NCBI GenBank assembly: GCA_016931115.1
Contig: JAFGFM010000149.1
Span: 5,050 to 69,049 of the forward strand
Source: Deltaproteobacteria bacterium
GTDB taxonomy: Bacteria; Desulfobacterota; DSM-4660; Desulfatiglandales; HGW-15
Direction: 5' to 3'
DNA length: 64,000 bases
The notes under the pieces were generated by a model. It was not told where the DNA came from. It did no database searches and was given only the letters and a program-made list of their open reading frames with translations. A program made the position numbers and the translations under genes. Of this stretch, positions 15,694 through 58,413 are shown piece by piece; within the stretch, counting starts at the first letter, position 1, and every line of letters begins with the position of its first letter.

Positions 15694-15791
15694 GATAAAA
15701 GCTTTCAGCCATCAGCTTCAAGCTATCAGCTTTAAGAATTAAAACAAAGACTTGGCTGAACGCTGATCGTTGACCTCTGTAAGCTACATTT
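15694..15791 (+). repeat. Heptanucleotide array (about 14 units) in the spacer after the stop codon
   Basis: In-phase units GATAAAA GCTTTCA GCCATCA GCTTCAA GCTATCA GCTTTAA GAATTAA ... TGAACGC TGATCGT TGACCTC TGTAAGC. Confidence 0.7.
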
Positions 15792-19552: not shown

Positions 19553-20251
19553 ATGAAATTACTGATCACGATAGTTATTCTTACGCTATGTATACAGTCA
19601 AATAGTTTGGCAGATGAATGTGTGATCCTTTTACACGGCCTTGCAAGGAGCAGCAGCTCATTTAACAGGATGGAATCAGTGTTAAAGGATAATGGGTATT
19701 TTACAGTGAATTACAATTATCCTTCCAGAAAATACAGCATTGAAAAGCTGGCAAAAGATTCCATTGATAATGCCCTTGCCCAATGCCCGGCCAATGGCAG
19801 GGTTCATTTTGTAACCCATTCTCTGGGCGGCATCCTTGTCAGGCAATACTTAAGTACCGGGAAAATAAAAAACCTGGGCAAGGTTGTTATGCTCGGGCCG
19901 CCTAATAAAGGCAGTCAGGTGGTTGATAAGCTAAAAAATGTACCCGGGTTTGAGTTTATAAACGGGCCTGCAGGTAGACAACTGGGTACAGACAGCATGG
20001 GTATACCTGCGAGGCTCGGGCCGGCAGAGTTTGAGGTCGGGATAATTGCAGGCACTCGCAGTATAAACCCCATCTTATCATCAATGCTGCCGGATCCTGA
20101 TGATGGCAAGGTGTCTGTTGAAAATACTAAACTCGCTGGTATGGCTGATCACATAACATTACCTGTTTCACACCCCTTTTTAATGAAAAATGATGAGGTG
20201 ATAAAACAGGTTATTTATTTTTTACAAAACGGGAAATTCATTAGGAAATAA
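19553..20251 (+). CDS. Secreted alpha/beta hydrolase (lipase/esterase-like)
   Basis: Signal peptide, LLHGL oxyanion region, and nucleophile elbow THSLGG. Confidence 0.75.
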   Translation: MKLLITIVILTLCIQSNSLADECVILLHGLARSSSSFNRMESVLKDNGYFTVNYNYPSRKYSIEKLAKDSIDNALAQCPANGRVHFVTHSLGGILVRQYLSTGKIKNLGKVVMLGPPNKGSQVVDKLKNVPGFEFINGPAGRQLGTDSMGIPARLGPAEFEVGIIAGTRSINPILSSMLPDPDDGKVSVENTKLAGMADHITLPVSHPFLMKNDEVIKQVIYFLQNGKFIRK

Positions 20252-20271
20252 TAGGCTGGAACCCCGCCCTT

Positions 20272-20427
20272 CTAATAAGAAAATATCTGAAGCCTGGCAA
20301 TCCTTGAAAAATGTGCAGTATTCCTGGTAATAATAGGGATATCATGTGTTATGCATATACCTGCAATAAGGATATCTGAAAAGTAATCAATAATTACATC
20401 GGTATCTGCAATTACGATTTTTTCCAA
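20272..20427 (-). pseudogene. VapC (PIN) toxin remnant with an in-frame internal deletion
   Basis: 51-codon ORF overlapping the antitoxin 3' end by 16 nt. The PIN N-terminus (EKIVIADTDVIIDYFSD) is joined directly to the PIN C-terminus (ILIAGICITHDIPIITRNTAHFSRI). The middle of the domain, estimated at roughly 70-80 residues, is missing. Confidence 0.55.
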
Positions 20428-20672
20428 TTTTTTCTCAGCTCTTTAATATTTGCTTTTATTTCCTCTGCTTCGTTTCTCCAACTCCCTTTCATGGCAAGAA
20501 TATTATTTTTAAGTTCGATGTTTTTTCCCTGTTCTTTAATGTAATGCTCCAGTGCATCTTCAATAATTTTTGAATACCCTCGCAGACCTTTTTGGGCAGC
20601 AATAGAGAGCAGTGAACTCCGATGGTTATCCGATATTTCAATTGTTGTTCGTATAAAATACCTCCATATCAT
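20412..20672 (-). CDS. VapB-type (RHH-like) antitoxin
   Basis: RTTIEISDNHRSSLLSIAAQKGLRGYSKIIEDALEHYI, and its position directly upstream of the PIN remnant. Confidence 0.6.
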   Translation of the reverse strand: MIWRYFIRTTIEISDNHRSSLLSIAAQKGLRGYSKIIEDALEHYIKEQGKNIELKNNILAMKGSWRNEAEEIKANIKELRKNWKKS

Positions 20673-20874
20673 TCAAGTACTCTAGTATTTAAATGCCTGG
20701 AAGTCAAATCTGGGTTAGTATTGAATGTTCTAGCAAAAGTACTTTGCCTTTTACTCTAGTTATTATGTCCTTCAAAGAAAGGCGTCCCGTTTAGCTCTTC
20801 TAGTTTTTCTGCTATTCTGATTTTATCATAATCAAAAGCTATCCGAAAATTTCACCCCTTTCAATACTCTTGGT

Positions 20875-20944
20875 GCTTTGAGCTTTGAGCTTTGAGCTTT
20901 GAGCTTTCAGCTTTGAGCTTTCAGCTTTGAGCTTTAAGCTTTCA
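20875..20944 (-). repeat. Ten tandem heptamers, GCTTTGA on + (GCUCAAA in the sense of the upstream minus-strand gene)
   Basis: GCTTTGA x4, GCTTTCA, GCTTTGA, GCTTTCA, GCTTTGA, GCTTTAA, GCTTTCA. The last unit contains the TGA stop (20942..20944) of the adjacent gene. Confidence 0.9.
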
Positions 20945-21358
20945 CTCCTCCCTGTCATAATGGGAAGTGAGCATCACCTCAACCCATGTAACAGGTTTAC
21001 CAACCCTTTTGAAAACAAGCGGGCAGTGTGATAATCCAGCCGGAACAGTTACTATTGAAGGTTTATTAATTATCTGGGGTTCCCCTTCCATATAAAAAAC
21101 AATATCCGCATCAAAATCATATTTATCTTTTGGGTTACTACCGAAAAAACACATCACATGCGGGAAGTCGTGTACATGAGGCGCCCTTTCATCCCCTTCC
21201 GGGTCTGCCTCTGTTATGACAGAGTATAAAATCTGGCAGTCAACCCCGAGTTTATCAGGGCTCGCAAGGAATCCCTCAAATATCTCCCCGGTGTGCAGTT
21301 TACCTTTTGGTGTCTCAAGTATGTATTTTCTGTATTTTGATTCAGCCATTCTATTCAA
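20942..21358 (-). CDS. Hypothetical protein, possibly cupin-fold
   Basis: 138 aa. APHVHDFPHVMCFFG ... VPAGLSHCP resembles two-His cupin motifs. No firm family call. Confidence 0.45.
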   Translation of the reverse strand: MNRMAESKYRKYILETPKGKLHTGEIFEGFLASPDKLGVDCQILYSVITEADPEGDERAPHVHDFPHVMCFFGSNPKDKYDFDADIVFYMEGEPQIINKPSIVTVPAGLSHCPLVFKRVGKPVTWVEVMLTSHYDREE

Positions 21359-25772: not shown

Positions 25773-25816
25773 AAGCAGGGCGTATCCGCCTTCGCTAAAA
25801 GCTACGGCAGGACAGG

Positions 25817-25879
25817 GGGCGCAGGGTTCAGGGCGCAGGGAAAGACCTTGAACCTTGTGCCCTGCGCCTTGAGCCCGAA
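25817..25879. repeat. Heptad array containing its own inverted copy (12-bp stem)
   Basis: GGGCGCA GGGTTCA GGGCGCA GGGAAAG ACCTTGA ACCTTGT GCCCTGC GCCTTGA GCCCGAA. 25829..25840 pairs with 25860..25871. Sits between convergent genes. Confidence 0.75.
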
Positions 25880-31536: not shown

Positions 31537-31800
31537 TTGAAAACCTGTTTAATGTTTATATGGTATTTTTTGATGATTAGGTTTTAATTCCCTTTTGAGC
31601 CATTGCGCGGGAAAATATAGAGATAAGAGGATTTTACGGCTGAAAAGTTAAGGTAATATAATTAATTACTTAGAAAATAGCAATATTTTGAAATTTTATT
31701 TTATATACCTTTGATCTAAGTCAAAGACTGCAATCCAGGGCTGTAATATAAATGACTTTATAGTTGATCATCCACATGGAATATAGATGTGGGATCAAAA

Positions 31801-31865
31801 ACAAGATTATAGTAAAGAGCAAGATTAAGATTAAGATTAAGAGCAAGAGAAAGAGTTAGAGTATA
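31801..31865 (+). repeat. Purine-rich hexamer array (AAGATT x3, AAGAGN variants) abutting the SD of the next gene
   Basis: ACAAGATTATAGTAAAGAGCAAGATTAAGATTAAGATTAAGAGCAAGAGAAAGAGTTAGAG, followed by TATAGGAGG and ATG 31876. Confidence 0.8.
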
Positions 31866-31875
31866 GGAGGCAAGT

Positions 31876-32250
31876 ATGACACTTACAAAGATAGGTAATG
31901 ACACGAAGTCACAGAAGAAAACAGGGTTAAAGGGAGGCGAACCGGCCCATATTGATAGTTTAATAGAATATGGTGAAGATGCAGTTGTAAGCCGTACACT
32001 GGTTGAAAACGATGCAGGCACAGTCACCCTGTTTGCCTTTGATGAGGGGCAGGGGCTGAGTGAACATACTGCCCCCTTTGATGCCCTTGTGCAGATTGTA
32101 GATGGTGAAAGTGAGATCATTATTGGAGGGGCATCAAACAGGGTCAAGAATGGAGAGCTAATATTAATGCCTGCAAATATCCCCCATGCACTAAGGGCAA
32201 CTAAACGTTTTAAAATGATACTGACCATGCTGCGGAAAAGGCCTGCATGA
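31876..32250 (+). CDS. Cupin domain protein
   Basis: 124 aa. GLSEHTAPFDALVQIVDGE...MPANIPHAL (cupin motifs 1 and 2). AGGAGG SD. Confidence 0.7.
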   Translation: MTLTKIGNDTKSQKKTGLKGGEPAHIDSLIEYGEDAVVSRTLVENDAGTVTLFAFDEGQGLSEHTAPFDALVQIVDGESEIIIGGASNRVKNGELILMPANIPHALRATKRFKMILTMLRKRPA

Positions 32251-36457: not shown

Positions 36458-36464
36458 TTTGAAA

Positions 36465-36513
36465 GCAGACAGCTGTCAGCGCTCAGCTTTCAGCCAAAAG
36501 CTTATAGAAACGT
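36465..36513 (+). repeat. Heptad array, GCNNNCA subfamily
   Basis: GCAGACA GCTGTCA GCGCTCA GCTTTCA GCCAAAA GCTTATA GAAACGT. Starts with the same GTTTGAAAGC lead-in as the array at 39126. Confidence 0.75.
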
Positions 36514-36539
36514 ACCCGGATGATTATTTGATCCGGGTA
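36513..36539 (+). terminator. Hairpin after the MBL gene (weak T-tract)
   Basis: TACCCGGAT / ATCCGGGTA 9-bp stem, 9-nt loop, followed by TGTTTAAT. Confidence 0.4.
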
Positions 36540-36570
36540 TGTTTAATAAACTAACCTTACAGACCTGATA

Positions 36571-37110
36571 ATGCATACAGAAAACAGAGTAACAAAGGCG
36601 AATAAACTAAAAATCAAAAAACCGAAAGGCTATTTTTGCTTTGCATGCGGGACAGCAAACCCCATAGGGCTGAACCTGGAATTTTATGTTTCACATGATA
36701 AGGTTAATACAGAAATCACATTAAACAGGTATCATGCAGGATGGTTTGATATTGTCCACGGGGGCATCATCTCTACAATCCTTGATGAGGTGATGTCATG
36801 GACCATCCTCTATTTTAGAAGATGTTTTTTTGTTACCAGAAAGCTTGAGATAAAGTATATAAAACCGGTTAAGACAGGTGTGCCTCTTATTGCAAGTGGA
36901 AGCATGCCAGCATGCTGTGACGATGAAAAAATAGTCAGGGTTGCAGGTGAACTGAGGGATAATCATAATTCCATGCTTGCAAAGGCCAGAGGGGAATTTA
37001 TTATAATCCGGCGGGAGGATATACAACCCGGGTTTAAAGAATCAGAAAAGGAGATTTTTTCCTTTATAGATGAGTTGGAAAAATCAGAGAAAATAGTAAT
37101 TAGTGATTAG
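36571..37110 (+). CDS. PaaI/hotdog-fold thioesterase with N-terminal zinc-ribbon
   Basis: CFACGTANPIGL followed by HGGIISTILDEVM. Confidence 0.75.
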   Translation: MHTENRVTKANKLKIKKPKGYFCFACGTANPIGLNLEFYVSHDKVNTEITLNRYHAGWFDIVHGGIISTILDEVMSWTILYFRRCFFVTRKLEIKYIKPVKTGVPLIASGSMPACCDDEKIVRVAGELRDNHNSMLAKARGEFIIIRREDIQPGFKESEKEIFSFIDELEKSEKIVISD

Positions 37111-37186
37111 GAAATAGGAAATAGGAAAGAGGGAAGAGAAAAGAGAAAGAGCTTTTTCTATATTCTATCTCCTGTTTCCTCTTTAC
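37110..37186. repeat. Polypurine heptad array followed by its polypyrimidine inverted counterpart
   Basis: GGAAATA GGAAATA GGAAAGA GGGAAGA GAAAAGA GAAAGAG, then CTTTTTC TATATTC TATCTCC TGTTTCC TCTTTAC, all in one phase. Starts at the last base of the TAG stop. Confidence 0.8.
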
Positions 37187-39092: not shown

Positions 39093-39125
39093 TGTTCAAA
39101 TATAAATTGTTGTTTTTGTTTGAAA

Positions 39126-39160
39126 GCGGTCAGCCTTTACCATTCAGCGTTCAGCAAAAT
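39126..39160 (+). repeat. Heptad array, GCNNNCA subfamily
   Basis: GCGGTCA GCCTTTA CCATTCA GCGTTCA GCAAAAT, preceded by GTTTGAAA. Confidence 0.7.
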
Positions 39161-53510: not shown

Positions 53511-53544
53511 AGAGACCCTGTCCAATGGACAGGGTCTCTTTTTA
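53511..53544. terminator. Strong rho-independent terminator between convergent genes
   Basis: AGAGACCCTGTCC-AAT-GGACAGGGTCTCT (13-bp perfect stem), followed by TTTTT. Confidence 0.8.
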
Positions 53545-53584
53545 TAACCCGATTATTTATCCTCTTATTTTCAGATATTGTTAA

Positions 53585-53628
53585 CCATTAACCATTCACA
53601 ATTCACCATTTACCATTTACCATTTACC
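53585..53628 (-). repeat. Heptad array CCATTTA on + (GGUAAAU in the sense of the upstream minus-strand gene)
   Basis: CCATTAA CCATTCA CAATTCA CCATTTA CCATTTA CCATTTA CC. Starts 12 nt beyond the stop of the CheZ-like gene. Confidence 0.85.
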
Positions 53629-55034: not shown

Positions 55035-56513
55035 TTGGCAGAGATTATCAGAACAATACCTGAACCGAATAAAACGGTTGATGTGGTCCGTGAATGTGAT
55101 GTTGTGGTTGTTGGCGGTGGCCCCGGTGGAATCGGTGCAGCGATCGCAGCAGCGCGCAACGGAGCAGATACTGTTCTTATAGAAAGATACGGTCATCTTG
55201 GCGGAATGAGCACTGGCGGGCTTGTTACAATTATTCCATGTATGTCTGACTTTGATGGAAACCTGCAGATTGCAGGCATAAACCAGGAGTTTATAGAGAG
55301 ACTCTCCGAAAGGAAGGCGGAGTTTCATCCTCCAATGGATATATGGGGCTCTGATGACCCCAAGCTTGTCAACTACTGGAATGAAAGATCATTCTTCTGG
55401 GTGCGTGAAAGACGTATAATTTACTCCTCCCTCATTGATGCTGAGATAGGAAAGTGTATCCTGAACAGCATGGTCAATGAGGCGGGTATAAAGACATACC
55501 TGCACGCATGGGGCACAATGCCCATTATGGAGGGGAACAAACCGGTCGGTGTGGTTTTTGAGAGCAAGTCAGGCCGCCAGGCAATAATGGCAAAGGTTGT
55601 AATAGATGCCACAGGGGATGGTGACCTCCTGCCATTTACCGGCGCAACATTTGACACGGATATAGACCCCAGGATCAGGATAGCCAATCTTTCACTCTGC
55701 TACTGGATCGATAATGTCAATCTGGTAAAGGTGGAGGATTTCCGCAGGGAATACCCGGACAAATGGGGCGAGATGATGATGGAGCTTATGCAGAAGGGAG
55801 GTCACCCCGGTTTCATGAGAAGCAACCTCCCCAACCAGGAAAAGGTGGTATGGGTGCATCCTAGATATGCAAACAAGAGCCAGACCGATGTTGAAGAGCT
55901 AACAAGGGTGGAGATGCTTGGCCGTGAGAAGATGCTCATAACCTTTGATTATTTTCAAAAGAATATCCCGGGTTTTGAGGAGAGTTTTATTGTGCTCTCA
56001 TCACCCCAGCTAGGAACAAGGGGCGCAAGAAGGGTGCATGGCGATTACATGGTTACATCAGAAGACCTCCAGCGTAATGTGCCCTTTGACGACACAATCG
56101 CCGTATTCCCGGACCTTGACAGGGGTAAGAATTCCATTGAGTCTCCACTTACCTTTATTCCATACAGGTCGCTTTTGCCAAAAGGCGTTGATAATATGCT
56201 GGTCGGATGCAGGGCATTTTCTTCTGATCAGGAGACCAACAATTTCTTTAATCTTATCCCCCACTGCATTGCACTGGGCGAGGCCGCAGGAACAGCAGCA
56301 GCCCTTTCACTGAAACAGGGTGTTACAGTAAGGGATGTGGATATAGAGGCGCTTAAAAAGCAGCTTATTAAACAGGATGTAATTCTACCCGGCGCATATC
56401 CTGATAAATACAAAAAACCCGGATGTGACAGGGTTACAGTATTTGAGGTGCCATTCTTTGGCGAATGGCAGGTTCCTAAAAAGGATGGAAACCAGATAAA
56501 GGCCGAACACTAA
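55035..56513 (+). CDS. FAD-dependent oxidoreductase
   Basis: Dinucleotide-binding motif VVVVGGGPGGIGAAIAAARNGADTVLIERYGHLGG. TTG start with AAGGAA upstream. Confidence 0.8.
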   Translation: MAEIIRTIPEPNKTVDVVRECDVVVVGGGPGGIGAAIAAARNGADTVLIERYGHLGGMSTGGLVTIIPCMSDFDGNLQIAGINQEFIERLSERKAEFHPPMDIWGSDDPKLVNYWNERSFFWVRERRIIYSSLIDAEIGKCILNSMVNEAGIKTYLHAWGTMPIMEGNKPVGVVFESKSGRQAIMAKVVIDATGDGDLLPFTGATFDTDIDPRIRIANLSLCYWIDNVNLVKVEDFRREYPDKWGEMMMELMQKGGHPGFMRSNLPNQEKVVWVHPRYANKSQTDVEELTRVEMLGREKMLITFDYFQKNIPGFEESFIVLSSPQLGTRGARRVHGDYMVTSEDLQRNVPFDDTIAVFPDLDRGKNSIESPLTFIPYRSLLPKGVDNMLVGCRAFSSDQETNNFFNLIPHCIALGEAAGTAAALSLKQGVTVRDVDIEALKKQLIKQDVILPGAYPDKYKKPGCDRVTVFEVPFFGEWQVPKKDGNQIKAEH

Positions 56514-56641
56514 TTTATACCAATAAAAGGGGTTCATCTTCTCTTGGATTTGAACCCCTTTTTTCATTTCTTACACCAGCCTCTGGACTTAAATTATTAA
56601 TTGTGCCAATATCATCATCAATAAAGAGACAAGGAGTGATT

Positions 56642-56989
56642 ATGCCCTATTTCAGTATTGAGACCAATAAAAAGATTGATATTAAAGATACAGAAAAACT
56701 CATGAGAAAGGCGAGCAGGTTTCTGGCAGAGATGATGACCAAGCCTGAGCAGGCTATAATGGTTGCCATCAAACCCGGGACGCCGCTTATTTTTGGTGGT
56801 ACAGATGATCCCTGTGCCTTTGTGAGAATTAAGGCCCTGGGGCTTGATAAGGGCAAATGCCCCGAGTTTTCAGGAAAGGTATGCGGATTTCTGGAAAAAG
56901 AGATAGGTGTGCCCGGAAACAGGGTATTTATAGAGTTTACAGATATAGATGGCGAGACATTCGGGTATAATGGTGATACGCTGGCGTAG
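56642..56989 (+). CDS. MIF/phenylpyruvate tautomerase family protein
   Basis: Catalytic Pro-1 context MPYFSIETN from ATG 56642, which is preceded by AAGGAG. The track GTG 56603 would bury Pro-1. Confidence 0.8.
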   Translation: MPYFSIETNKKIDIKDTEKLMRKASRFLAEMMTKPEQAIMVAIKPGTPLIFGGTDDPCAFVRIKALGLDKGKCPEFSGKVCGFLEKEIGVPGNRVFIEFTDIDGETFGYNGDTLA

Positions 56990-56990
56990 G

Positions 56991-57186
56991 GCGCATAGCG
57001 CAGGGCACAGGGTGAAAAGCTCAAAGCTCAAGGCTCGAAGCTCAAAGCATAAAATATAGGGCACAAGGCGCAAGGGGCAAGGTGTAAAATAATAACTGGT
57101 TTACGGTTTAAGGTATGCGGTGTAAGGAAGCCGCAGACCGAATACCGCAGACCGTAAACCTAATTTCAGGGGTTGCAGGTAAAATT
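56991..57186 (+). repeat. 28 phase-locked heptanucleotides filling the whole intergenic spacer
   Basis: GCGCATA GCGCAGG GCACAGG GTGAAAA GCTCAAA GCTCAAG GCTCGAA GCTCAAA GCATAAA ATATAGG GCACAAG GCGCAAG GGGCAAG GTGTAAA ATAATAA CTGGTTT ACGGTTT AAGGTAT GCGGTGT AAGGAAG CCGCAGA CCGAATA CCGCAGA CCGTAAA CCTAATT TCAGGGG TTGCAGG TAAAATT, then ATG. Confidence 0.85.
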
Positions 57187-58413
57187 ATGGATATGGAAGA
57201 TGACATTATAGAAGATGACATTATAGAAGAGAATGGCAAGGTTGAAGAGACTTTTGGAGAGAGCTTTGAGGAGCTCTTAAAACAGAGCGAGGTAAAGGCT
57301 ACATTTTTTCAGCCGGGTCAGGAGATAGAGACCACCATTATCCAGATCGCTGATGAATGGGTTTTTATCGACACGGGGAGTAAATCCGAAGGTGTCATTG
57401 CCCTGAATGAGTTCAAGGATGAAGAGGGGAATATCAGCATAAAGACTGGCGATACAGTCAGGGCCTATTTCCTCTCATCCCATAACAGTGAAAGACTCTT
57501 TACCACAAAACTTTCTCTTGAATCCACAGGCAAGGAATTTCTTGAGGATGCCTATCATAACGGCATACCTGTTCAGGGGGTTGTTGAAAAAGAGGTAAAG
57601 GGGGGGTATGAGATCAGGCTTGCCGGCAAGACCCGCGCATTCTGCCCCTTCTCCCAGCTGGGCCTTGGACGTATAGAGGACAGCAGCACAGTCACAGGTT
57701 CTGAACTCACATTCAGGGTAACCCAGTATGGTGAAAAGGGCCGTAACATTGTCCTCTCACACCGTGCAATTGTTGAACAGGAGAGGGAAAAAAGAAAGCT
57801 TGAATTGAAAGATTCCCTCAAGGTGGGGATGACAGTGACAGGCACAGTAACATCTATTAAAAAATTCGGGGCATTTATAGAGGCAGATGGCATAGAGGGG
57901 CTGATCCCTGTATCAGAGCTCTCATGGGGACGCGTGGACGATATAGAGGGGATTCTCTCTATCGGTCAGAAGGTGGAGGTTGTTATCTCATCACTTGACT
58001 GGGATAATAACAAATATTCATTCAGCCTGAAGGAAAAACTCCCTGATCCCTGGGATACCATAATAAAAAAATACCCTGAAGGTTCGCTGCATAAGGGTAA
58101 AGTGGCAAGGCTTGAGAAGTTTGGGGCATTTATCACCCTTGAGCCTGGCATAGATGGCCTTCTCCATATCTCTGAGCTTGGCAAAGAGAAGAGAATAAAC
58201 CATGCAAGAGAGGCGCTTACCGCAGGTCAGGAGATAGATGTAAGGATAAACGGCATAGATAAAGAAAAGAGAAGGCTTTCACTTGGCCTGGCATCAAATG
58301 AGAAGGATGAGGAAAAAGAGGTATTTGAGAGCTTCAGCAGTGCCAGCAGCAAGGCTGGCGGTTCATTCGGCACCCTCGGAGACCTTTTAAAGACAAAGCT
58401 TACTAAAAAATAA
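57187..58413 (+). CDS. S1 RNA-binding domain protein (four S1 repeats, acidic N-terminus)
   Basis: Four repeats of the S1 OB-fold pattern (e.g. GMTVTGTVTSIKKFGAFIEADGIEGLIPVSEL). ATG 57187 is preferred over track ATG 57115, which lies inside the heptad array. Confidence 0.8.
   Translation: MDMEDDIIEDDIIEENGKVEETFGESFEELLKQSEVKATFFQPGQEIETTIIQIADEWVFIDTGSKSEGVIALNEFKDEEGNISIKTGDTVRAYFLSSHNSERLFTTKLSLESTGKEFLEDAYHNGIPVQGVVEKEVKGGYEIRLAGKTRAFCPFSQLGLGRIEDSSTVTGSELTFRVTQYGEKGRNIVLSHRAIVEQEREKRKLELKDSLKVGMTVTGTVTSIKKFGAFIEADGIEGLIPVSELSWGRVDDIEGILSIGQKVEVVISSLDWDNNKYSFSLKEKLPDPWDTIIKKYPEGSLHKGKVARLEKFGAFITLEPGIDGLLHISELGKEKRINHAREALTAGQEIDVRINGIDKEKRRLSLGLASNEKDEEKEVFESFSSASSKAGGSFGTLGDLLKTKLTKK

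What the first reader, a model, noticed from the sequence alone, without database searches (positions are those of the whole stretch)
56991..57186. A whole 196-bp intergenic spacer is exactly 28 phase-locked heptanucleotides
From the base after the MIF-gene TAG plus 1 up to the base before ATG 57187, the sequence parses without any indel into 28 units of 7 nt. G is at position 1 in 13 of the first 14 units.

Neighbouring units differ by only 1-2 substitutions (GCGCATA > GCGCAGG > GCACAGG > GTGAAAA > GCTCAAA > GCTCAAG > GCTCGAA ...). This looks like repeated local duplication followed by drift. The last third keeps the phase with other cores (NNGGTNT x4, CCGNANA x4).

Heptanucleotide tandem repeats (STRR) are known from heterocystous cyanobacteria. 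I am not aware of a described equivalent in this kind of genome, and the function of STRRs is itself unknown.

The exact fit to the spacer, and the location between a stop codon and the next start, suggest the array is transcribed as a 3'UTR/5'UTR.
Basis: seen in the sequence. Interest (0 to 1): 0.7.

Follow-up and report, generated by a model that had tools for sequence, protein, structure and literature searches.

The report
Seven-base tandem repeats in a gene spacer
The spacer between two genes of an uncultured sulfate-reducer-type bacterium really is built mostly of drifting 7-base tandem repeats plus a hairpin made of the same kind of units, but this is a local example of a repeat class already described in cyanobacteria, Xanthomonas, Beggiatoa and Geobacter.

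Summary
Lag-7 self-identity in 56991-57186 is 0.571, against 0.266 +/- 0.032 in dinucleotide shuffles (z = 9.5, 0 of 2000).

Two parts of the description do not hold:
- The "exact fit of 28 x 7" does not stand. The spacer is 197 nt, and ten orthologous spacers are 29-678 nt, only one of them a multiple of 7.
- About 22 of the 28 units are truly heptadic. Units 16-25 are a 24-nt inverted repeat forming a stable hairpin (-33 kcal/mol, z -5.2). The last 3-4 units are the ribosome-binding region of the S1-domain gene.

Heptad arrays recur in 7-8 of 45 intergenic regions of the window (0.19 expected) and never in coding sequence. All 8 loci lie within 31 nt of a stop codon (null 1.76 of 8, P < 5e-5).

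Relatives carry arrays at the same sites with different unit numbers and types. Length differences in the hairpin region are whole heptads (61, 82 and 68 nt between fixed anchors).

Best reading: slippage-generated, transcribed heptameric simple-sequence repeats of the cyanobacterial STRR type, some paired into terminator-like hairpins.

This is a new member of a known kind, in Thermodesulfobacteriota. Any function is inferred, not shown.

The parts
56642..56989 (+). Upstream gene: MIF/tautomerase-family protein of 115 aa, stop TAG at 56987-56989
   Evidence: Pfam PF01187, E 5e-22. The same product is encoded on Logan contig L001.
56990..57186 (+). The whole stop-to-start spacer, 197 nt
   Evidence: It is identical in L001.
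56991..57011 (+). Heptad block A: GCGCATA GCGCAGG GCACAGG. These are GGCNCAR-type units, which also follow the MIF stop in relatives.
   Evidence: The same unit type follows the MIF stop in L003, L005, L035, L036, L034 and L002.
57012..57053 (+). Heptad block B: GTGAAAA GCTCAAA GCTCAAG GCTCGAA GCTCAAA GCATAAA. This locally amplified variant is present only in the window's own lineage.
   Evidence: Tandem Repeats Finder 57016-57048, period 7, 4.7 copies. The block is absent from all orthologous spacers. The same unit occurs in about 10 copies at 20875-20942 on the minus strand.
57054..57088 (+). Heptad block A': ATATAGG GCACAAG GCGCAAG GGGCAAG GTGTAAA. It is in phase with block A. Positions 57059-57082 are a possible two-tetrad G-quadruplex.
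57098..57121 (+). 5' arm of the heptad-built hairpin (GGTTTAC GGTTTAA GGTATGC GGT)
   Evidence: Inverted repeat I1, 24 nt, 83% complementary. MFE -33 kcal/mol, z -5.2.
57137..57160 (+). 3' arm of the hairpin (ACCGAAT ACCGCAG ACCGTAA ACC)
   Evidence: A hairpin is kept in L002, L004 and L016 with 7- and 21-nt length differences.
57166..57186 (+). Ribosome-binding region of the S1-domain gene (TCAGGGGTTGCAGGTAAAATT). It is conserved and not heptadic.
   Evidence: Lag-7 identity is 0.36 here. The region is conserved upstream of the ATG in L002, L004, L016, L003, L005 and L035.
57187..58413 (+). Downstream gene: 408-aa protein with several S1 RNA-binding domains. The ATG at 57187 is the likely true start.
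   Evidence: Pfam PF00575, E 1e-46. Orthologues start at the equivalent ATG. The 432-aa gene call from ATG 57115 would run through the hairpin.
15700..15735 (+). Another heptad array (AGCTTTC AGCCATC AGCTTCA AGCTATC AGCTTTA), 20 nt after a stop codon
20875..20942 (-). The longest array, (AAGCTCA/AAGCTGA) x 9.7, starting directly at the stop of the minus-strand ORF 20942-21358
25817..25875 (.). GGCGCAG-type heptads and their inverted copy form a hairpin between convergent genes. This is the only canonical G3-type G-quadruplex motif in the window.
   Evidence: MFE -45 kcal/mol, z -4.9.
36463..36504 (+). AGCNNNC heptad array 6 nt after a stop codon and upstream of a small stem-loop
37095..37151 (+). 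TAGTAAT TAGTGAT TAGGAAA x3 GAGGGAA ... array that contains the stop codon of ORF 36571-37110
39123..39157 (+). Weak AGCNNTC heptad array 31 nt after a stop codon
53584..53628 (-). GGTAAAT-type array (ACCATTT on the + strand) 12 nt after the cheZ-like stop and before a bidirectional terminator hairpin
   Evidence: There are three ACCATTT copies here against one in the 96% relative L035.

Best explanation
The spacer is a composite of heptanucleotide simple-sequence repeats of the STRR / long-SSR type, in a Thermodesulfobacteriota genome. The closest assemblies are labelled 'uncultured Desulfatiglans sp.'.

(1) Direct array. Fourteen units sit directly after the MIF stop codon. The array grows and shrinks in whole 7-nt steps by slipped-strand mispairing or unequal exchange, and it drifts by point substitution. 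This explains the constant phase and the nested blocks A-B-A'.

(2) Hairpin. A second set of heptads (GGTTTAC-type) faces its own inverted copy (CCGTAAA/CCGCAGA-type). Together they form a stem-loop of about 63 nt, 26 nt upstream of the S1-domain gene start.

(3) The last 21 nt are an ordinary ribosome-binding region.

Both array types are most likely transcribed as the MIF 3' UTR / intercistronic RNA.

The direct arrays are probably tolerated, near-neutral filler between stop codon and terminator. The hairpin most likely acts at the RNA level as a weak terminator or 3'-end-protecting intercistronic stem-loop, as proposed for STRR hairpins between hupS and hupL in cyanobacteria.

Shown here: periodicity, recurrence, position next to stop codons, whole-unit length variation, and hairpin stability and persistence. 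Inferred: the slippage mechanism, transcription, and any function.
For: Periodicity: z 9.5 at lag 7.

Recurrence: period 7 is the leading local periodicity in 7 of 45 intergenic regions. Shuffles give 0.19, other lags give at most 1, and coding chunks give 0. Period 7 is the commonest Tandem Repeats Finder period in 122 kb from the closest relatives.

Position: all 8 array loci lie 1-31 nt from a gene 3' end. Random placement within intergenic space gives a mean of 1.76 of 8, and 0 of 20000 trials reached 8. None of the 11 divergent (promoter-only) regions has an array.

Turnover:
- Orthologous MIF-S1 spacers carry different numbers and types of units.
- The 96%-identical relative L035 has three GCGCATA units where the window has one, and it lacks the hairpin.
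- The cheZ 3' array has 3 ACCATTT units in the window against 1 in L035.
- Anchor-to-anchor lengths of 61, 82 and 68 nt are all 5 mod 7.
- A 76% relative has only a 29-nt spacer, so the arrays are dispensable additions to an operon-like junction.

Hairpins:
- The spacer hairpin folds at -33 kcal/mol, z -5.2. The orthologues L002, L004 and L016 fold with z of -4.1 to -5.2.
- Hairpins built from the same unit types sit at convergent gene junctions and are followed by T-runs in relatives: L033 -47 kcal/mol, z -6.2; L039 -36 kcal/mol, z -3.9.

Published parallels: intergenic, ORF-proximal, under-represented between divergent genes, transcribed, with inverted pairs and strong length and sequence variation between close relatives (PMC4692102). 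STRR hairpins between cistrons are described in PMC2670836.
Against: - No transcript data, so transcription of the arrays and any terminator or stabiliser role are inferred.
- The hairpin has no U-tract in the window (tail UAAUUUC), and the terminator scan found nothing.
- No compensatory base changes were seen in the hairpin alignment of four orthologues.
- The hairpin is absent in L003, L005, L035, L036 and L037, so it is not essential.
- The very tight association with stop codons (0-31 nt) is stronger than a purely neutral tolerance model obviously predicts, and could indicate function.
- The gene map used for the position statistics comes from ORF calling, not annotation.
- Only 64 kb of this genome was available.
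Confidence: 0.7

Rival explanations
1. The arrays are functional RNA elements. They would be multivalent binding platforms in 3' UTRs for an RNA-binding protein (S1-domain, cold-shock, CsrA-like or ring-shaped). The protein would set mRNA stability, termination or translation of the next cistron, and unit number would tune the effect.
For: All 8 loci sit 0-31 nt after stop codons and, where a terminator is visible, upstream of it. Unit cores are conserved while other positions vary, for example G1, C2, C4 and A5 in 9 units. Arrays persist at the same gene ends down to 70-76% protein identity. A comparable proposal exists for TAACTGA repeats (PMC4679880).
Against: There are at least five unrelated unit families in 64 kb. 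The AGCT-core family occurs in both orientations relative to the upstream gene. Arrays are lost entirely in some close relatives. No candidate protein was tested.
Confidence: 0.12
2. The G-rich GGCNCAR / GGGCGCA units act by forming G-quadruplexes in DNA or RNA, like the GGGAATC repeats of Xanthomonas and the GGGGAYT repeats of Nostoc.
For: The only canonical G3-type quadruplex motif in the 64-kb window lies in a heptad array, at 25815-25840. The spacer has a two-tetrad candidate at 57059-57082. The G-rich strand is the sense strand downstream of each gene, as reported in PMC4692102.
Against: Most units in the spacer have only GG or a single G. The GCTCAAA, ACCATTT and AGCNNNC arrays cannot form quadruplexes. 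At 25817-25875 and in L033 the G-rich arm faces a complementary arm, so a duplex hairpin competes. Quadruplex formation cannot be tested with these tools.
Confidence: 0.06
3. The hairpin part (57098-57160) is a small dispersed REP- or MITE-like element that inserted upstream of the S1-domain gene, rather than a product of local slippage.
For: A hairpin built of the same GGTTTAC/ACCGTAA units lies at an unrelated locus in relative L039 (17335-17440). Short ACCGTAG/ACCGCAA runs lie at the cheZ 3' end in L002 and L003. The hairpin is present or absent among close relatives.
Against: There is no second copy in the 64-kb window. No target-site duplication or conserved termini were seen. Arm length varies in 7-nt steps, which points to slippage. 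Weaker versions occur upstream of the S1 gene in 73-74% relatives, which suggests long residence.
Confidence: 0.1
4. This is a contingency (phase-variation) locus. Changes in unit number would switch or tune expression of the S1-domain gene.
For: Unit number varies between close relatives. A weak alternative pairing exists between the hairpin 3' arm and the start-codon region: 57152-57166 with 57182-57196, 73% complementary.
Against: The arrays are neither inside a coding frame nor between promoter hexamers. The associated genes are ordinary housekeeping or metabolic genes. Arrays lie after stop codons, not before starts.
Confidence: 0.04
5. There is no real feature: the parse is a chance pattern or a compositional artefact.
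For: The '28 x 7 exact fit' needed one base to be dropped, and 5-6 of the 28 units are not heptadic.
Against: z 9.5, 0 of 2000 shuffles. Tandem Repeats Finder gives independent calls. The pattern recurs at 7 other loci and in relatives.
Confidence: 0.01

Closest known systems
STRR (short tandemly repeated repetitive) heptanucleotide sequences of filamentous heterocystous cyanobacteria
   Same: 7-nt units repeated in tandem and imperfectly. Several unit families per genome. Intergenic and often just downstream of ORFs. Able to form hairpins between cistrons, as at hupS-hupL (PMC2670836). Function unknown.
   Different: Unit sequences are unrelated: no tandem CCCCAGT, TTGGTCA or CAACAGT. The host is a Thermodesulfobacteriota lineage, not a cyanobacterium. 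Genome-wide copy number is not known here.
Intergenic heptameric G-rich repeats of Xanthomonas (GGGAATC) and Nostoc (GGGGAYT), Rehm et al. 2015, PMC4692102
   Same: Heptameric and intergenic. Close to ORF ends, downstream on the coding strand. Rare between divergent genes. Occasional inverted pairs. Kept between the same genes in related species but with extensive length and sequence variation. G-tract every 7 nt in the GGCNCAR family.
   Different: Mostly GG rather than GGG tracts. Many arrays here are not G-rich at all. There is no preference for four units.
Heptanucleotide long simple sequence repeats of prokaryotes (Mrazek et al. 2007, as summarised in PMC4679880 and PMC4692102)
   Same: Units of 5-11 nt with 7 the most frequent. 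Excluded from coding sequence because 7 is not a multiple of 3. Polymerase slippage is the proposed origin.
   Different: This is a general statistical class, not a defined element. Arrays here are more degenerate than the near-perfect repeats usually counted.
TAACTGA direct repeats of marine Beggiatoaceae, some Cyanobacteria and Bacteroidetes (MacGregor 2015, PMC4679880)
   Same: Abundant intergenic heptamer direct repeats in a free-living sediment bacterium. An RNA-level role has been proposed.
   Different: There it is a single unit sequence placed just upstream of start codons. Here there are many unit families placed just downstream of stop codons, and no tandem TAACTGA.
Four- and five-copy heptanucleotide elements of Geobacter metallireducens (GGACCGG, MTYCTGA; PMC2700814)
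   Same: Tandem heptanucleotide elements dispersed in the genome of a relative in the former Deltaproteobacteria, annotated as possible regulatory elements.
   Different: Those have a fixed copy number and consensus and are also found inside genes. The units are not found here in tandem.
Intrinsic terminators and REP-type 3' stem-loops
   Same: A stable stem-loop downstream of a gene. In relatives, heptad-built hairpins at convergent junctions carry T-runs.
   Different: In the window the hairpin has no U-tract, is unusually long, and is built of repeat units with alternative 7-nt registers.

Membership tests
STRR (cyanobacterial heptanucleotide repeats) | Unit of 7 nt repeated head to tail | tested here: met
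STRR (cyanobacterial heptanucleotide repeats) | Non-coding location, many dispersed loci, several unit families in one genome | tested here: met
   8 loci in 64 kb, all intergenic, at least 5 unit families. Whole-genome copy number not available.
STRR (cyanobacterial heptanucleotide repeats) | Canonical unit sequences STRR1-3 (CCCCAGT, TTGGTCA, CAACAGT; units recalled from Mazel et al. 1990) | tested here: not met
   No tandem copy of any of them.
STRR (cyanobacterial heptanucleotide repeats) | Host is a filamentous heterocystous cyanobacterium | tested here: not met
   The closest assemblies are titled uncultured Desulfatiglans sp. / Desulfobacteraceae.
Heptameric long simple sequence repeats (Mrazek class) | Tandem array longer than expected from composition | tested here: met
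Heptameric long simple sequence repeats (Mrazek class) | Copy-number change in whole units between related genomes (slippage signature) | tested here: met
G-quadruplex-forming heptamer repeats (Xanthomonas/Nostoc type) | At least four G3+ tracts at 7-nt spacing | tested here: not met
   Not in the spacer, which has only a G2-type candidate at 57059-57082. Met at 25815-25840.
G-quadruplex-forming heptamer repeats (Xanthomonas/Nostoc type) | Quadruplex actually forms | not testable with these tools
   Needs CD or melting experiments.
TAACTGA repeats (Beggiatoaceae type) | Unit TAACTGA, located a few nt upstream of start codons | tested here: not met
   No tandem TAACTGA. Arrays are next to stop codons.
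Intrinsic (Rho-independent) terminator | GC-rich stem-loop immediately followed by a U-tract | tested here: not met
   The stem-loop is present, but there is no T-run and no hit in the scan. Heptad hairpins in relatives L033 and L039 are followed by T-runs in the sequence.
REP / MITE-like dispersed element | Multiple near-identical dispersed copies with defined ends or target duplications | tested here: inconclusive
   There is no second copy in the window. A similar hairpin lies at an unrelated locus in L039. The whole genome is not available.
Known structured RNA families (Rfam) | Match at or above a family's gathering score | tested here: not met
   No match in the window. Only chance-level matches in 56500-57300.
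Phase-variation contingency locus | Repeat inside a reading frame or between promoter elements, so that unit number switches expression | tested here: not met
   Arrays lie after stop codons and no + strand promoter overlaps them. The effect on expression was not tested.

The most novel reading that the evidence does not exclude
In this Desulfobacteria lineage, heptad arrays placed within about 30 nt of stop codons would be a genome-wide class of functional 3'-UTR elements. Direct arrays would serve as multivalent protein- or quadruplex-forming platforms. Inverted arrays would serve as 'soft' terminators or intercistronic attenuators. Their strength would be retuned rapidly by whole-unit slippage, giving evolvable post-transcriptional control in a free-living anaerobe rather than a pathogen.
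Probability: 0.1. Interest if true: 0.65.

Novelty: new member of a known kind. Interest (0 to 1): 0.3.

Why it matters
Heptameric tandem repeats are the commonest long simple-sequence repeat in many bacteria, yet their function has been open since the STRRs were described in 1990.

This locus adds a clean comparative series in an uncultured Thermodesulfobacteriota lineage. The same gene junction is seen in eleven other assemblies. Nine retain the MIF gene, with spacers from 29 nt with no repeats up to 172 nt that is nearly all repeats, or 678 nt with only about four units (L034).

Three features are documented:
- Whole-unit indels between relatives.
- Tight placement after stop codons.
- Repeated recruitment of inverted arrays as terminator-like hairpins.

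That makes the neutral-filler versus 3'-UTR-function question testable with metatranscriptomes or reporter constructs. It does not reveal a new kind of element.

A practical point for annotation: gene callers can extend ORFs through such arrays. Here a 432-aa call was made where 408 aa is the likely product.

Tried and rejected
- Exact fit of the spacer to 28 x 7: rejected. The spacer is 197 nt, and only one of ten orthologous spacers is a multiple of 7.
- Known RNA family or riboswitch in the spacer: none.
- Canonical promoter or terminator on the + strand of the spacer: none.
- Covariation support for the hairpin: none. Four sequences gave 0 compensatory pairs, and the alignment is unreliable because the arms have several 7-nt registers.
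- Coding potential of the arrays: rejected. Overlapping ORFs are shadow ORFs, and 7-nt indels between relatives would shift any frame.
- A consistent strand orientation of units relative to the upstream gene: rejected. AGCT-core units read AAGCTCA after two genes and AGCTTTC after three others.
- Arrays as three-frame stop-codon backstops: rejected from the sequence, because (GCTCAAA)n contains no stop triplet in any frame.
- A '4-nt palindromic core plus 3-nt loop' explanation for the 7-nt unit: it holds for the GCGC and AGCT units (mini-hairpins). It fails for the GGTTTAC, CCGCAGA, ACCATTT and TAGGAAA units, which is no better than chance.
- An exact-sequence look-up of the 408-aa S1 product found nothing. 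The metagenome scan added only one close relative.
- Literature search for heptamer repeats in sulfate reducers or Desulfobacterota found nothing specific.
Full report
**What is at the coordinates**

The region lies between two genes on the + strand.
- Upstream is a 115-aa MIF/tautomerase-family gene (56642-56989, Pfam PF01187).
- Downstream is a 408-aa gene with several S1 RNA-binding domains (ATG at 57187, Pfam PF00575).
- The stop-to-start spacer is 56990-57186, which is 197 nt.

**Is it more than chance?**

Yes.
- Identity at lag 7 is 0.571, against 0.266 +/- 0.032 in 2000 dinucleotide-preserving shuffles (z 9.5).
- No shuffle reached that value at any lag from 2 to 30.
- Lags 14, 21 and 28 are also far out, while lags 3-4 and 10-11 are depleted.
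- Tandem Repeats Finder independently reports three period-7 arrays inside the region.

**Anatomy**

Comparing each unit with its neighbours divides the region into four parts.
- Units 1-14 (56991-57088) are a direct array with lag-7 identity of 0.67. The layout is A-B-A'.
  - The GCGCAGG/GCACAGG units and the GCACAAG/GCGCAAG units flank a locally amplified GCTCAAA variant.
  - All share G1, C2, C4 and A5 in one phase.
- Unit 15 is an AT-rich junction.
- Units 16-25 are the two arms of an inverted repeat, not a further direct array.
  - The arms are 57098-57121 and 57137-57160: 24 nt, 83% complementary.
  - A second register shifted by 7 nt also pairs.
  - The stem-loop folds at -33 kcal/mol, z -5.2 against shuffles.
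- Units 26-28 are the conserved ribosome-binding region. They match their neighbours at only 1-3 of 7 positions.

So about 22 of the 28 units are truly heptadic, and the exact fit to the spacer is an artefact of a free offset.

**The rest of the window**

Period 7 is the leading local periodicity in 7 of 45 intergenic regions of at least 40 nt.
- Dinucleotide shuffles give 0.19 on average.
- Every other lag from 4 to 12 gives 0 or 1.
- Coding chunks of matched size give 0 at lag 7.
- Pooled intergenic DNA shows raised identity at lags 7, 14 and 21, and coding DNA does not.

The arrays:

| Position | Units |
|---|---|
| 15700-15735 | AGCTTTC-type |
| 20875-20942 | AAGCTCA x 9.7 on the minus strand; same unit as block B |
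| 25817-25875 | GGCGCAG-type facing its inverted copy |
| 36463-36504 | AGCNNNC |
| 37095-37151 | TAGGAAA-type, containing a stop codon |
| 39123-39157 | weak AGCNNTC |
| 53584-53628 | ACCATTT |

All eight loci lie 1-31 nt from a gene 3' end.
- Random placement of intervals of the same size within intergenic space gives 1.76 of 8 on average.
- It reached 8 of 8 in none of 20000 trials.
- None of the 11 divergent, promoter-only regions has an array.
- Where a terminator hairpin is visible (36515-36540 and 53511-53541), the array lies between the stop codon and that hairpin. This places the arrays inside the presumed transcripts.

**Relatives**

The closest genomes are assemblies titled 'uncultured Desulfatiglans sp.' (phylum Thermodesulfobacteriota), with 85-96% identity in the S1-domain protein. 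Further relatives lie at 70-76%. Gene order (cytochrome, cheZ-like, FAD oxidoreductase, MIF, S1) is conserved.

The orthologous MIF-S1 spacers are very different:

| Locus | S1 identity | Spacer | Content |
|---|---|---|---|
| L035 | 96% | 172 nt | Almost all GCGCAGG-type units, with three GCGCATA units where the window has one. No hairpin, no GCTCAAA block, and a phase shift mid-spacer. |
| L002 | 94% | 167 nt | No GCTCAAA block; three extra units in the hairpin 5' arm. |
| L004, L016 | 85%, 93% | 150 nt | Hairpin but no GGCNCAR array. |
| L003, L005 | 90%, 92% | 69 and 94 nt | Short GGCGCAA-type arrays only. |
| L036 | 76% | 77 nt | Four units. |
| L034 | 70% | 678 nt | Four units directly after the stop, then about 600 nt of other sequence. 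|
| L037, L038 | 76% | 29 nt | No repeats. |

- Between the fixed anchors AATAACTGG and CCGTAAACCTAA the lengths are 61, 82 and 68 nt. All are 5 mod 7, so the length differences are whole heptads.
- The array at the cheZ 3' end has three ACCATTT units in the window and one in L035. In L002 and L003 the units there are different, and the 70-76% relatives have none.

It is the signature of slippage-type turnover.

**Hairpins built of heptads are a recurring design**

- Window 25817-25875: GGCGCAG-type units follow each of two convergent genes in the sense orientation. Together they form a hairpin of -45 kcal/mol, z -4.9.
- At one orthologous convergent junction (HGD-D / FBPase) in two relatives, the flavour of the unit differs.
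  - L033 has a GGCGCAA-type hairpin (-47 kcal/mol, z -6.2).
  - L039 has a GGTTTAC/ACCGTAA-type hairpin (-36 kcal/mol, z -3.9).
  - Both are followed by a T-run.
- The L039 flavour is the one found in the spacer under study.
- Weaker versions with T-runs lie just upstream of the S1 ribosome-binding site in L033 and L039, which lack the MIF gene.
- In the window the spacer hairpin has no U-tract, and the simple terminator scan finds nothing.
- An alignment of four orthologous hairpins shows conservation but no compensatory change. RNA-level selection is therefore not demonstrated.

**Most likely mechanism**

The arrays are heptameric simple-sequence repeats.
- They expand and contract in 7-nt steps and drift by substitution. 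The whole-unit indels, the constant phase and the nested variants are shown; slipped-strand mispairing as the cause is inferred.
- Because 7 is not a multiple of 3, they are excluded from coding DNA.
- They appear to be tolerated mainly between the stop codon and the terminator.

They are probably transcribed with the MIF gene. Three points support this, all by inference: a 29-nt junction in a relative, no + strand promoter in the spacer, and arrays lying upstream of terminators elsewhere.

Inverted arrays give long imperfect stem-loops. These plausibly act as weak terminators or as 3'-end-protecting or intercistronic structures, the role suggested for STRR hairpins between hupS and hupL (PMC2670836).

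I put 0.7 on this overall reading, and much less on any specific function.

**Rivals**

- Protein-binding platform in the 3' UTR: 0.12.
- G-quadruplex element: 0.06. The only canonical G3 motif in the window is in the array at 25815-25840, and the spacer has only a two-tetrad candidate.
- REP/MITE-like insertion for the hairpin: 0.1.
- Phase-variation locus: 0.04.
- Chance: 0.01.

**Comparison with what is known**

The properties found here match published descriptions closely.
- Heptanucleotide repeats are reported as the most abundant long simple-sequence-repeat class in many prokaryotes, with polymerase slippage as the proposed cause (Mrazek et al. 2007, as summarised in PMC4679880 and PMC4692102).
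- In Xanthomonas and Nostoc the heptameric repeats are intergenic, close to ORF ends, downstream on the coding strand, and rare between divergent genes. They are transcribed and sometimes occur in inverted pairs. They are kept between the same genes in related species with extensive length and sequence variation (PMC4692102).
- Beggiatoaceae carry TAACTGA repeats (PMC4679880).
- Geobacter metallireducens carries dispersed four- and five-copy heptanucleotide elements (PMC2700814).

None of those unit sequences occurs here in tandem, and no Rfam family matches. I found no paper describing such arrays in sulfate-reducer lineages of Desulfobacteria.

**Verdict**

This is a real feature and a new member of a known kind. 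Interest is modest. The useful points are:
- the comparative series across relatives;
- the strong association with stop codons;
- the interchangeable hairpin flavours at orthologous junctions.

Noticed in passing
window 57192-57230: A 15-nt in-frame tandem repeat (TATAGAAGATGACAT x 2.6) encodes the acidic N-terminus MDMEDDIIEDDIIEE of the S1-domain protein. Orthologues differ here, for example MDMEDDILEDD in L002 and MDMEDENIEE in L003.
   Followed up: partly
window 57115-57186: An automatic gene call on the identical Logan contig starts the S1-domain gene at ATG 57115 (432 aa). That start runs through the hairpin. Conservation of the ribosome-binding region and of the ATG at 57187 in orthologues indicates a 408-aa product.
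   Followed up: partly
window 25815-25875; L033 17323-17403; L039 17335-17440: Long hairpins built of heptad arrays and their inverted copies sit between convergent genes. Two relatives use different unit flavours at the same orthologous junction, and both hairpins there are followed by T-runs. 25815-25840 is the only G3-type quadruplex motif in the window.
   Followed up: partly
window 37095-37129: Five consecutive TAGNNNN units span the stop codon of ORF 36571-37110. From memory, (UAGNNNN)n is the pattern bound by the Bacillus HutP antiterminator. No such protein was looked for here.
   Followed up: no
window 57152-57166 and 57182-57196: The 3' arm of the hairpin could alternatively pair with the start-codon region of the S1-domain gene (15 nt, 73% complementary). 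This is a weak candidate for a translational switch.
   Followed up: no
window 31803-31863: A tandem repeat of period 6/12/24 (AAGAGC/AAGATT) lies inside ORF 31758-32228 on the minus strand. The period is in frame, in contrast to the intergenic heptads.
   Followed up: no
L034 9400-10000: In the 70% relative the MIF-S1 spacer is 678 nt. After four heptads it contains about 600 nt of unexplained AT-rich sequence with several inverted repeats.
   Followed up: no
window 20252-20941: Between gene 19553-20251 and the long AAGCTCA array lie short minus-strand ORFs, such as 20412-20672 (87 aa). They were not examined further.
   Followed up: no
L011, L022, L023, L024, L025 (other Desulfobacterales loci): Period-7 arrays with yet other units (AAAGTGA, AAATTGA, GCATAGG with inverted CTATGCG, AGGTTTG x 8) occur in distant Desulfobacterales contigs. 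The habit may be widespread in the order.
   Followed up: partly
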